Assembly (NCBI RefSeq): GCF_045037415.1
Contig: NZ_CP173438.1
DNA length: 64,000 bases
Source of the DNA: Escherichia coli
GTDB taxonomy: Bacteria; Pseudomonadota; Gammaproteobacteria; Enterobacterales; Enterobacteriaceae
Reading direction: 5' to 3' (one strand)
Positions 16,104-48,448 of the stretch are shown here, one piece after another. Made by a program: the position numbers and the translations under genes. The notes beneath the pieces are model-generated. The model saw only the letters and a program-made list of their open reading frames with translations, was not told the DNA's origin and ran no database searches. Position 1 is the stretch's first letter; each line of letters starts with the position of its first letter.

Positions 16104-16412
16104 AACAATTTCCCTTCATTGAATGAATGGAGATTTACCCAAAACATTTCGGGCGGGATCGAGTATACACAACTAAAGCATGCGAATTACGGCGCGGGGA
16201 ATTAGTGATGGAGTTTTAGGACAATTGGAATGAATATCAAATATAAGCTTTGACTTATATATAAATAAGATTAAAAATCATGAAGTTAAAATAAAATAAA
16301 AAGTAATTACTCTGCGTATTTTCCGAAATAAACCACGATTAAAAATTTATTTTAGGATTAACCTCACGGTATGATTTTCGTTAAATGACAGACAAGAGGA
16401 TTTATCTGATAA

Positions 16413-16445
16413 AACAATGCCGACTTATAGTCGGCATTGTTTTTA
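16413..16445. terminator. bidirectional hairpin terminator downstream of pgi
   Basis: perfect palindrome aacaatgccgacttatagtcggcattgtt flanked by A-run and T-run. Confidence 0.75.
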
Positions 16446-16510
16446 AGGCTATTTAATCAATCGTACTATGTATTAATTGCCGAATACGATGTACATATCG
16501 GCATCGACCT

Positions 16511-16594
16511 GTAGGCCTGATAAGACGCGACCGCGTCGCATCAGGCATCGGTTGCCGGATGCGGCGTGAACGCCTTATCCGGCCTACATATCGA
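16511..16594. repeat. REP/BIME elements downstream of pgi
   Basis: gtaggcctgataagacgcg...gcatcaggc and gccggatgcggcgtgaacgccttatccggcctac. Confidence 0.85.
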
Positions 16595-18469: not shown

Positions 18470-18720
18470 TACTACCTGCGCTAGCGCAGGCCAGAAGAGG
18501 CGCGTTGCCCAAGTAACGGTGTTGGAGGAGCCAGTCCTGTGATAACACCTGAGGGGGTGCATCGCCGAGGTGATTGAACGGCTGGCTACGTTCATCATCG
18601 GCTACAGGGGCTGAATCCCCTGGGTTGTCACCAGAAGCGTTCGCAGTCGGGCGTTTCGCAAGTGGTGGAGCACTTCTGGGTGAAAATAGTAGCGAAGTAT
18701 CGCTCTGCGCCCACCCGTCT
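18470..18720 (+). promoter_or_regulatory. lysC leader with lysine riboswitch (L-box)
   Basis: long structured 5' UTR upstream of lysC with conserved segments ...gaggcgcgttgcccaagtaacgg...ggaggagcc...gggggtgcatcgccgaggtgattgaacggctgg...; boundaries approximate. Confidence 0.7.
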
Positions 18721-42279: not shown

Positions 42280-42723
42280 ATGGTTATTAGTATTCGACGC
42301 TCACGGCATGAGGAGGGGGAGGAACTCGTTGCGATTTGGTGTCGTTCTGTCGATGCCACTCACGATTTTTTATCAGCAGAGTATCGGGCCGAGCTGGAAG
42401 AGCTGGTGCATTCCTTTCTGCCGGAAGCACCGTTGTGGGTCGCGGTTAATGAGCGGGATCAGCCGATTGGATTTATGTTGTTAAGTGGGCAGCATATGGA
42501 TGCGCTGTTTATCGATCCTGATGTGCGCGGCTGCGGCGTGGGCCGGATGCTGGTGAAGCATGCGCTCTCAATGGCCCCGGAACTGACAACCACTGTTAAT
42601 GAGCAAAATGAGCAGGCGGTTGGGTTCTATAAGAAGGTGGGCTTTAAGGTTACGGGACGCTCTGAGGTGGACGATTTGGGGAAACCGTATCCGTTGCTGA
42701 ATCTGGCATATGTGGGGGTGTAG
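42280..42723 (+). CDS. yjaB: GNAT-family N-acetyltransferase
   Basis: 147 aa with acetyl-CoA binding motif (RGCGVGRMLVKHAL). Confidence 0.85.
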   Translation: MVISIRRSRHEEGEELVAIWCRSVDATHDFLSAEYRAELEELVHSFLPEAPLWVAVNERDQPIGFMLLSGQHMDALFIDPDVRGCGVGRMLVKHALSMAPELTTTVNEQNEQAVGFYKKVGFKVTGRSEVDDLGKPYPLLNLAYVGV

Positions 42724-42786
42724 GCGGTTTTTTTCTCATCCCGGTGGGCTGAACTTTAGGTTTCGTACCCACCAATGGTGACATGA

Positions 42787-43170
42787 TTATTTCTGCTTAA
42801 ACATTGCCATGACCGCACTATCACTGAGTACCACTGATTGCGCATGGATGTGGAACTGGCGATATTTCATTAACGTTGCCCCTGCGACCACTTCATGAAG
42901 AATGCGTTCCTCAACCTGTGACAAACCGCCCTCATTCATTTCCAGCGCGCTCACAACAATATCCATACGTTTTGCTGGCAAAAAAGAATGCCAGGTTGAA
43001 CGTGGGTGGAGTTGCAGAACAAGATCTTGCAGAACTTTTTCTGCAACAAAGAAATTGGCGATTAACAGGCGCTGGTTACTGAAGGCAGCATCTCCTGACA
43101 CTTCACGTTTGCTTTCAAGATCGCGAACAGTAATTTGATTACGACGAATTTGGATATACAGAACTGACAT
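42787..43170 (-). CDS. yjaA: YjaA, stress-induced protein
   Basis: start at MSVLYIQIRRNQITVRDLESKRE (127 aa) inside ORF 42787..43206. Confidence 0.8.
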   Translation of the reverse strand: MSVLYIQIRRNQITVRDLESKREVSGDAAFSNQRLLIANFFVAEKVLQDLVLQLHPRSTWHSFLPAKRMDIVVSALEMNEGGLSQVEERILHEVVAGATLMKYRQFHIHAQSVVLSDSAVMAMFKQK

Positions 43171-43204
43171 GAGATTCCCTTCATCATGCAAATAATTGAT
43201 ATGC

Positions 43205-43236
43205 AAAAAACCCCGGCCTTATTGACCGGGGTTTTT
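43205..43236 (-). terminator. rrn operon terminator (bidirectional hairpin)
   Basis: ccccggccttattgaccgggg flanked by A-run and T-run, just 3' of the 5S rRNA. Confidence 0.8.
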
Positions 43237-43244
43237 CTAATTTG

Positions 43245-43364
43245 ATGCCTGGCAGTTCCCTACTCTCGCATGGGGAGACCCCACACTACCATCGGCGCTA
43301 CGGCGTTTCACTTCTGAGTTCGGCATGGGGTCAGGTGGGACCACCGCGCTAAGGCCGCCAGGCA
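43245..43364 (-). rRNA. rrfE: 5S ribosomal RNA
   Basis: 120-nt reverse complement of the E. coli 5S sequence (TGCCTGGCGGC...GGGAACTGCCAGGCAT); operon letter inferred from neighbours purH and metA. Confidence 0.96.
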
Positions 43365-43464
43365 AATTCTGTTTTATCAACACGTCCCGTTATGACCTGT
43401 CGATTTAATCTGCTATCAAGCTTACTTATCGATGTCTCTTCCGCCAAAACATCTTCGGCGTTGT

Positions 43465-46368
<2,904 letters not shown>

Positions 46369-46561
46369 TCACAACCCGAAGATGTTTCTTGCGATTCATC
46401 ATCGTGTTGCGAAAATTTGAGAGACTCACGAACAACTCTCGTTGTTCAGTGTTTCAATTTTCAGCTTGATCCAGATTTTTAAAGAGCAAATATCTCAAAC
46501 ATCACCCGAAGATGAGTTTTGAGATATTAAGGCAGGTGACTTTCACTCACAAACCAGCAAG

Positions 46562-46637
46562 TGGCGTCCCCTAGGGGATTCGAACCCCTGTTACCGCCGT
46601 GAAAGGGCGGTGTCCTGGGCCTCTAGACGAAGGGGAC
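46562..46637 (-). tRNA. gltV: tRNA-Glu (UUC) in 16S-23S spacer
   Basis: rc matches GTCCCCTTCGTCTAGAGGCCCAGGACACCGCCCTTTCACGGCGGTAACAGGGGTTCGAATCCCCTAGGGGACGCCA. Confidence 0.96.
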
Positions 46638-46722: not shown

Positions 46723-48264
<1,542 letters not shown>

Positions 48265-48448
48265 AAAAGTTTGATGCTCAAAGAATTAAACTTCGTAATG
48301 AATTACGTGTTCACTCCTGAGACTTGGTATTCATTTTTCGTCTTGCGACGTCAAGAATCCGTATCTTCGAGTGCCCACACAGATTGTCTGATAAATTGTT
48401 AAAGAGCAGTTGCGACGCGGCTTTCAGCTCACTGTCGCGAGGTGGCGT

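What the first reader, a model, noticed from the sequence alone, without database searches (positions are those of the whole stretch)
43245..43364. 5S rRNA copy carries a variant near its 5' end
The 5S sequence reads ...GCGCTAAGGCCGCCAGGCA on the plus strand where I recall the canonical copy as ...GCGCTACTGCCGCCAGGCA. This is either operon-specific heterogeneity or strain variation; it lies in the terminal helix.
Basis: partly seen in the sequence, partly recalled or inferred. Interest (0 to 1): 0.1.

Follow-up and report, generated by a model that had tools for sequence, protein, structure and literature searches.

The report
Common natural 5S rRNA allele
The 5S ribosomal RNA gene here differs from the laboratory K-12 copy at two adjacent unpaired bases; this is an ordinary variant found in about three quarters of complete E. 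coli genome records.

Summary
Window 43245-43364 (minus strand) is a full-length 5S rRNA gene, rrfE of an E. coli rrnE operon. It differs by one base (G13U) from the other K-12 allele (C12 G13: rrfC, D, G, H). No K-12 copy has U13.

It is not an error. A 25 kb segment of the window that contains the whole rrnE operon is 100% identical in many independent genomes. The exact C12-U13 5' end occurs at least once in 4114 of 5463 E. coli records.

In strain SK1144, a close relative, 2 of 8 copies carry U13 (rrfE, rrfH). Four copies are C12 G13 and two are A12 G13. In other lineages the same allele sits in rrfH, rrfD or rrfA. So it is both heterogeneity between copies within a genome and a difference between strains.

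Nucleotides 12-13 lie in the unpaired three-way junction (loop A), not in terminal helix I, and helix I is unchanged.

Best reading: a near-neutral loop A polymorphism moved between rrn operons by gene conversion. It is ordinary and already known.

Side observation: the 23S-5S spacer beside it is a divergent 100-nt type, present in all seven operons of this lineage but in only 13% of E. coli genomes.

The parts
43245..43364 (-). 5S rRNA gene, the rrfE orthologue, 120 nt, allele C12 U13
   Evidence: Rfam RF00001 at 93.2 bits, full length. It matches K-12 rrfE at 118 of 120 positions. RefSeq annotates the identical stretch as rrf in strains H105 and SK1144.
43352..43353 (-). The two variant bases. 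Plus-strand a43352 is RNA U13 (G in all eight K-12 copies). Plus-strand g43353 is RNA C12 (A in K-12 rrfA/B/E/F, C in rrfC/D/G/H).
   Evidence: Direct reading and comparison with all eight K-12 copies. Both lie in the multiloop of the Rfam consensus structure.
43365..43464 (-). 23S-5S transcribed spacer, a 100-nt divergent type. Its ends match K-12 but its centre differs from all seven K-12 spacers (92-93 nt).
   Evidence: Alignments. It is identical in all seven operons of SK1144. It is found in 717 of 5426 genomes. It keeps a hairpin just 5' of AUAAAACAGAAUU.
43465..46368 (-). 23S rRNA gene of the same operon
   Evidence: Rfam RF02541 at 2866.7 bits.
46562..46637 (-). tRNA-Glu (UUC) in the 16S-23S spacer
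   Evidence: ARAGORN. Rfam tRNA match.
46723..48264 (-). 16S rRNA gene of the same operon
   Evidence: Rfam RF00177 at 1577.6 bits.
43205..43237 (-). Terminator hairpin and U-run directly after the 5S gene. It differs by one loop base from K-12 rrnE.
   Evidence: Predicted hairpin of -22.5 kcal/mol. The K-12 counterpart is visible. The simple consensus scan did not flag it.

Best explanation
This is a functional 5S rRNA gene, rrfE of the rrnE operon (16S, tRNA-Glu, 23S, 5S), in an E. coli clonal lineage that includes strains 81009, H105 and SK1144. It carries a common natural allele, C12 U13. The two variable nucleotides lie in loop A, the unpaired three-way junction just past helix I, so the change breaks no base pair. 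I infer it is neutral or nearly so. The allele is a long-standing polymorphism of the species. It is copied from one rrn operon to another by gene conversion (homologous recombination between the paralogous operons) and passed between strains. As a result it appears in different operons in different lineages and in only some copies within a genome. Shown here: the sequence, the location in the structure, the distribution across copies, operons and genomes, and the lack of effect on predicted pairing. Inferred: neutrality, and gene conversion as the spreading mechanism.
For: It is a full-length 5S gene in an intact operon. It differs from K-12 only at nt 12-13. Eight SK1144 copies were read: rrfE and rrfH are U13; rrfA, B, C and G are C12 G13; rrfD and F are A12 G13. 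The exact C12-U13 45-mer has a 100% best match in 4114 of 5463 records. An identical 120-nt allele occurs in rrfH of O157:H7, rrfD of B1S11 and SWHEFF_69, and rrfA of 2015C-4136CT1, next to K-12-type, window-type and mosaic spacers. This placement and the mosaic spacer are what recombination between operons would produce. Nt 12-15 are multiloop in the Rfam consensus structure. G13 is one of the two most strongly glyoxal-reactive guanines in vivo and is assigned to loop A (PMC5733565). C11, C12 and A15 of loop A are DMS-reactive in free 5S RNA, 50S subunits and 70S complexes (PMC1976436). Helix I is predicted identically for all three alleles, and the accepted secondary structure has the same computed energy, -41.7 kcal/mol, for each. 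In Serratia sp. DD3, six separate 5S loci all carry C12 U13, so U13 is compatible with being a major 5S form in a related bacterium.
Against: No functional measurement of U13 against G13 was available, so neutrality is inferred from structure and prevalence only. Gene conversion is inferred from the pattern, not from a reconstructed phylogeny. The copy-by-copy survey covers one close relative (SK1144), which differs from the window at a few positions inside 16S and 23S, plus single operons of four other strains. In both complete rrnH reads from non-K-12 strains (SK1144, O157:H7) the allele is present. That would also fit an operon-linked role.
Confidence: 0.9

Rival explanations
1. The U13 allele marks functionally specialised ribosomes, for example as part of a distinct rrnH-type operon. 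Its presence in rrnE would then change the ribosome pool of this lineage.
For: U13 is in rrfH in SK1144 and in O157:H7. rrnH has been proposed to yield functionally distinct ribosomes through its 16S variants (PMC6312700). Loop A is the junction that sets the overall geometry of 5S rRNA.
Against: The same allele also sits in rrfD and rrfA in other strains, so it is not tied to one operon. The base is unpaired and solvent-reactive. K-12 lacks U13 entirely. The published rrnH effect concerns 16S, not 5S.
Confidence: 0.05
2. The allele arrived in this lineage by horizontal transfer from another species, together with the divergent 23S-5S spacer.
For: The adjacent spacer differs strongly from K-12 and is restricted to 13% of genomes. 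C12 U13 also exists in a few other Enterobacterales.
Against: U13 occurs next to ordinary K-12-type spacers in O157:H7 rrnH and B1S11 rrnD. It is present in about 75% of E. coli records. It is therefore far more widespread than the spacer and not linked to it. The spacers of the other U13-bearing species are unrelated to the window type.
Confidence: 0.04
3. It is a sequencing or assembly error, or a decaying non-functional 5S copy.
For: rRNA repeats are prone to assembly collapse.
Against: The sequence is identical in many independently sequenced complete genomes, over 871 bp and over 25 kb. It is a full-length, high-scoring 5S match. All ten helix I pairs are intact. The operon and terminator are intact.
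Confidence: 0.01

Closest known systems
E. coli K-12 MG1655 rrfE (b4010), identical to rrfB
   Same: It is the orthologous gene: last gene of rrnE, followed by the same terminator and by yjaA and yjaB. 118 of 120 nucleotides are identical.
   Different: A12 G13 in K-12 against C12 U13 here. The 23S-5S spacer upstream is 93 nt of a different type, and one terminator loop base differs.
E. coli K-12 rrfC, rrfD, rrfG and rrfH allele (C12 G13; from my own memory, the classical textbook 5S sequence)
   Same: 119 of 120 nucleotides are identical, and C12 is shared. This is also the majority allele (rrfA, B, C, G) in SK1144.
   Different: G13 against U13.
rrf copies of other E. coli: O157:H7 PV15-279 rrfH, B1S11 rrfD, SWHEFF_69 rrfD, 2015C-4136CT1 rrfA
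   Same: All are 120 of 120 identical to the window's 5S gene.
   Different: They lie in other operons, and the neighbouring spacers are K-12-type, window-type or mosaic.
Early RNA-sequencing report of E. coli 5S heterogeneity (Brownlee, Sanger and Barrell, 1967-68), which as I remember it described G/U heterogeneity at position 13 in strain MRE600
   Same: If my recollection is right, this is the same U13 variant, coexisting with G13 molecules in one strain.
   Different: I could not verify this. The papers are not in the held library, and the MRE600 accession I tried, itself recalled from memory, is not in the collection. Treat it as a lead from memory.

Membership tests
5S rRNA (Rfam RF00001) | Covariance-model score above the curated gathering threshold, over the full length | tested here: met
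   93.2 bits against a threshold of 38, model positions 1-120, not truncated.
5S rRNA (Rfam RF00001) | Terminal helix I intact (nt 1-10 paired with 110-119) | tested here: met
   All ten pairs are standard in the window allele. Helix I is predicted identically in all three alleles.
5S rRNA (Rfam RF00001) | Gene lies at the 3' end of an rRNA operon, after 23S | tested here: met
   16S, tRNA-Glu, 23S and 5S are contiguous on the minus strand, followed by a terminator hairpin.
rrnE operon of E. coli (orthologue of K-12 rrfE) | Flanked by yjaA and yjaB downstream and purH upstream | tested here: met
   Annotated features under the 100% matches and in SK1144 and H105. K-12 shows the same neighbours.
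K-12 rrfE allele (A12 G13) | Sequence identical to K-12 rrfE | tested here: not met
   Two adjacent differences, at nt 12 and 13.
   The Rfam consensus structure puts nt 12-15 in the multiloop. C12 and G13 are listed as reactive loop A bases (PMC1976436; PMC5733565).
Common E. coli 5S allele C12 U13 | The same allele recurs in independent E. coli genomes | tested here: met
   100% best match of the 45-nt 5' end in 4114 of 5463 records. Full 120-nt identity in four other strains.
Historically described U13 form of E. coli 5S RNA (MRE600) | Published description of G/U heterogeneity at position 13 | not testable with these tools
   The papers are not held. The MRE600 accession I tried, recalled from memory, is not in the collection. 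The MRE600 genome paper does not discuss 5S.

The most novel reading that the evidence does not exclude
The window's lineage has replaced the 23S-5S spacer of all seven rrn operons with a divergent type and has also spread the U13 5S allele from rrnH to rrnE. The most novel reading not excluded is that this rebuilt 3' end of the operons changes processing of the 5S precursor, or the make-up of the 5S pool, in a way that matters for the fitness of this successful clone.
Probability: 0.03. Interest if true: 0.4.

Novelty: already known. Interest (0 to 1): 0.05.

Why it matters
It matters very little biologically. It is a reminder that K-12 is not 'the' E. coli sequence. K-12 itself carries two alleles at position 12 (four distinct 5S sequences in all), and most other strains add a U13 allele. 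This is relevant to designing 5S probes or primers, to interpreting heterogeneity in ribosome structures and RNA sequencing, and to using rRNA operon variants as markers. The pattern of one allele in different operons, plus a mosaic spacer, is a neat small example of concerted evolution by gene conversion among rrn operons.

Tried and rejected
Literature: searches for the original 5S heterogeneity papers and for work on the E. coli 23S-5S spacer found nothing relevant. The J Bacteriol 1999 spacer paper is not held.

MRE600: the accession I tried, recalled from memory, is not in the collection, and the MRE600 genome paper says nothing about 5S. The historical link therefore rests on memory.

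Composite queries: I joined the window's spacer and 5S gene to K-12 flanks to pull out rrnG and rrnH of SK1144. They did not list that strain. I located both operons instead by walking along the annotation.

Terminator: the simple consensus scan missed the hairpin after the 5S gene, but folding shows it clearly.

5S folding: single-sequence minimum-energy folding does not reproduce the accepted 5S structure beyond helix I. I therefore evaluated the accepted pairing, entered from memory, directly.

Rejected explanations: sequencing error, pseudogene, and import together with the spacer. Reasons are given under the rival explanations.

Full report
**What is at the coordinates.**
Window 43245-43364 is a 120-nt 5S rRNA gene on the minus strand.
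- Rfam RF00001 matches it at 93.2 bits (gathering score 38), over the full model.
- It is the last gene of a complete rRNA operon on the minus strand: 16S at 46723-48264, tRNA-Glu(UUC) at 46562-46637, and 23S at 43465-46368.
- A strong hairpin and U-run follow it at 43205-43237.
- The 871 bp around the gene are 100% identical to many complete E. coli genomes. There the features are annotated as yjaB, yjaA, rrf and 23S rRNA.
- This is therefore the rrnE operon of E. coli. A 25-kb stretch including the whole operon is 100% identical in strains such as 81009, 4/4 and AR_0055.

**The observation.**
The RNA begins UGCCUGGCGGCCUUAGCGCGG. I fetched all eight 5S genes of K-12 MG1655 and compared them.

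| K-12 copies | nt 12 | nt 13 | Other differences from rrfB |
|---|---|---|---|
| rrfB, rrfE | A | G | none |
| rrfA | A | G | C92U |
| rrfF | A | G | C3U, G117A |
| rrfC, rrfD, rrfG, rrfH | C | G | none |
| Window rrfE | C | U | none |

- The window differs from K-12 rrfE at two adjacent bases: plus-strand 43353 (RNA A12 to C) and 43352 (RNA G13 to U).
- It differs from the other K-12 allele only by G13U.
- No K-12 copy has U13.
- The variable K-12 positions I found (3, 12, 92, 117) agree with the published count of four variable 5S positions in K-12 (PMC6312700).

**Is it real and how common is it?**
- The first 45 nt of the window's 5S gene find a 100% match as the best place in 4114 of 5463 E. 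coli records. K-12-type genomes reach only 97.8% or 95.6%.
- So about three quarters of complete E. coli genome records carry at least one C12-U13 copy.

**All copies in one genome of this lineage.**
I read all eight rrf genes of strain SK1144, which is identical to the window over 42600-43470.

| SK1144 copies | Allele |
|---|---|
| rrfE | C12 U13, identical to the window |
| rrfH | C12 U13 plus C118U |
| rrfA, rrfB, rrfC, rrfG | C12 G13 |
| rrfD, rrfF | A12 G13 (rrfF also C3U, G117A) |

- The variant is thus heterogeneous within the genome (2 of 8 copies) and also differs from K-12 at the orthologous gene.
- Caveat: SK1144 is not identical to the window inside 16S and 23S. It is a close proxy, not the same genome.

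**Other lineages.**
An identical 120-nt allele lies in different operons in different strains.

| Strain | Copy with C12 U13 | Neighbouring 23S-5S spacer |
|---|---|---|
| O157:H7 PV15-279 | rrfH | K-12 type |
| B1S11 | rrfD | K-12 type |
| SWHEFF_69 | rrfD | window type, 2 differences |
| 2015C-4136CT1 | rrfA | mosaic: 5' half K-12 type, 3' half window type |

- One allele in four different operons, unlinked to spacer type, with one recombinant spacer, is the expected footprint of gene conversion among paralogous rrn operons. This is an inference from the pattern.

**Outside E. coli.**
- An exact scan for nt 4-31 with C12 U13 across one genome from each of 100,044 species gave only ten stretches in five species.
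- These are a Plautia stali symbiont, Trabulsiella odontotermitis, Escherichia sp. MOD1-EC7003, Yersinia massiliensis and Serratia sp. DD3 (six loci).
- Their spacers are unrelated to the window's.
- Serratia sp. DD3 shows that C12 U13 can be the allele at many or all 5S loci of an enterobacterium.

**Where the change lies in the structure.**
It is not there.
- In the Rfam alignment the terminal stem ends at C11, and nt 12-15 are marked as multiloop.
- Published probing lists C11, C12 and A15 as DMS-reactive loop A bases in free 5S RNA, 50S subunits and 70S complexes (PMC1976436).
- G13, 'located in Loop A', is one of the two most strongly glyoxal-modified guanines of E. coli 5S rRNA in vivo (PMC5733565).
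- All ten helix I pairs are standard in the window allele. Helix I is predicted identically for all three alleles.
- The accepted pairing scheme has the same computed energy, -41.7 kcal/mol, for CU, CG and AG.
- The Rfam consensus base at the position of nt 13 is A, and E. coli's G already departs from it.

**Mechanism.**
- The gene is an ordinary, presumably fully functional 5S rRNA gene.
- The C12 U13 allele is a common, near-neutral polymorphism of unpaired junction nucleotides. It is kept in the species and shuffled among operons by gene conversion.
- Neutrality is inferred from structure, prevalence and natural occurrence elsewhere. It has not been measured.
- A role in specialised ribosomes cannot be formally excluded, because U13 is in rrnH in both non-K-12 rrnH operons I read. 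Its presence in rrnD, rrnA and rrnE elsewhere, and its absence from K-12, argue against that.

**Comparison with what is known.**
- 5S allelic heterogeneity in E. coli is long established, and K-12's is documented in the papers cited above.
- From memory, the original RNA sequencing of E. coli 5S RNA (Brownlee, Sanger and Barrell, 1967-68) already reported G/U heterogeneity at position 13 in strain MRE600.
- I could not verify this with the tools.
- Regardless, the allele is present and annotated in thousands of public genomes.
- Verdict: already known, of very low interest.

**Side finding.**
- The 23S-5S spacer (43365-43464, 100 nt) matches K-12 at both ends, but its centre differs from all seven K-12 spacers.
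- It is identical in all seven operons of SK1144.
- It occurs in only 717 of 5426 genomes. Of the 721 matching records, 550 match at 99% or more. Among genomes with any match, the median is seven copies per genome.
- Both spacer types keep a hairpin immediately 5' of the conserved AUAAAACAGAAUU that precedes the 5S gene.
- This lineage-wide homogenisation is a clearer example of concerted evolution than the 5S change itself. Its origin was not determined.

Noticed in passing
window 43365-43464 (minus strand): The 23S-5S spacer is a divergent 100-nt type, unlike all seven K-12 spacers (92-93 nt). It is identical in all seven operons of SK1144 but present in only 717 of 5426 E. coli genomes. A hairpin before the conserved AUAAAACAGAAUU is kept despite different sequence. 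Its origin is unknown.
   Followed up: partly
L023 489-586 (strain 2015C-4136CT1, rrnA): This is a mosaic 23S-5S spacer. The 5' half is K-12-type and the 3' half is window-type, next to a U13 5S gene. It looks like a gene-conversion breakpoint inside the spacer.
   Followed up: partly
L017 17926-18045 (SK1144 rrfH): rrfH of SK1144 carries C118U in addition to U13. This turns the G2-C118 pair of helix I into a G-U wobble.
   Followed up: no
L011 and L013 (SK1144 rrnB and rrnA): In SK1144, rrnA has tRNA-Glu in the 16S-23S spacer and rrnB has tRNA-Ile plus tRNA-Ala. As I recall the K-12 arrangement, which was not checked here, this is the reverse of K-12. That would be another sign of exchange between operons.
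   Followed up: no
window 43223 (terminator loop, minus strand): The terminator hairpin after the 5S gene has one loop difference from K-12 rrnE: GGUCAAUAAGG here against GGUCCAUAAGG. The stem is unchanged.
   Followed up: yes
window 44269, 45141-45152, 48128, 48189 and near 48280: The window differs from SK1144 at a few positions inside 23S and 16S and by an indel just upstream of 16S, although other strains match the window 100% over 25 kb. This is small-scale rRNA variation within the clone.
   Followed up: no
window 4465-4535, 8695-8765, 16514-16584, 37893-37964; 16299-16448; 18487-18683; 46376-46484; 60106-60206: Other Rfam matches in the window: four naRNA4 repeats, STnc430, a lysine riboswitch, StyR-44 in the 16S-23S spacer region, and a TPP riboswitch (upstream of thiC, by the SK1144 annotation). 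All are at or above gathering score.
   Followed up: no
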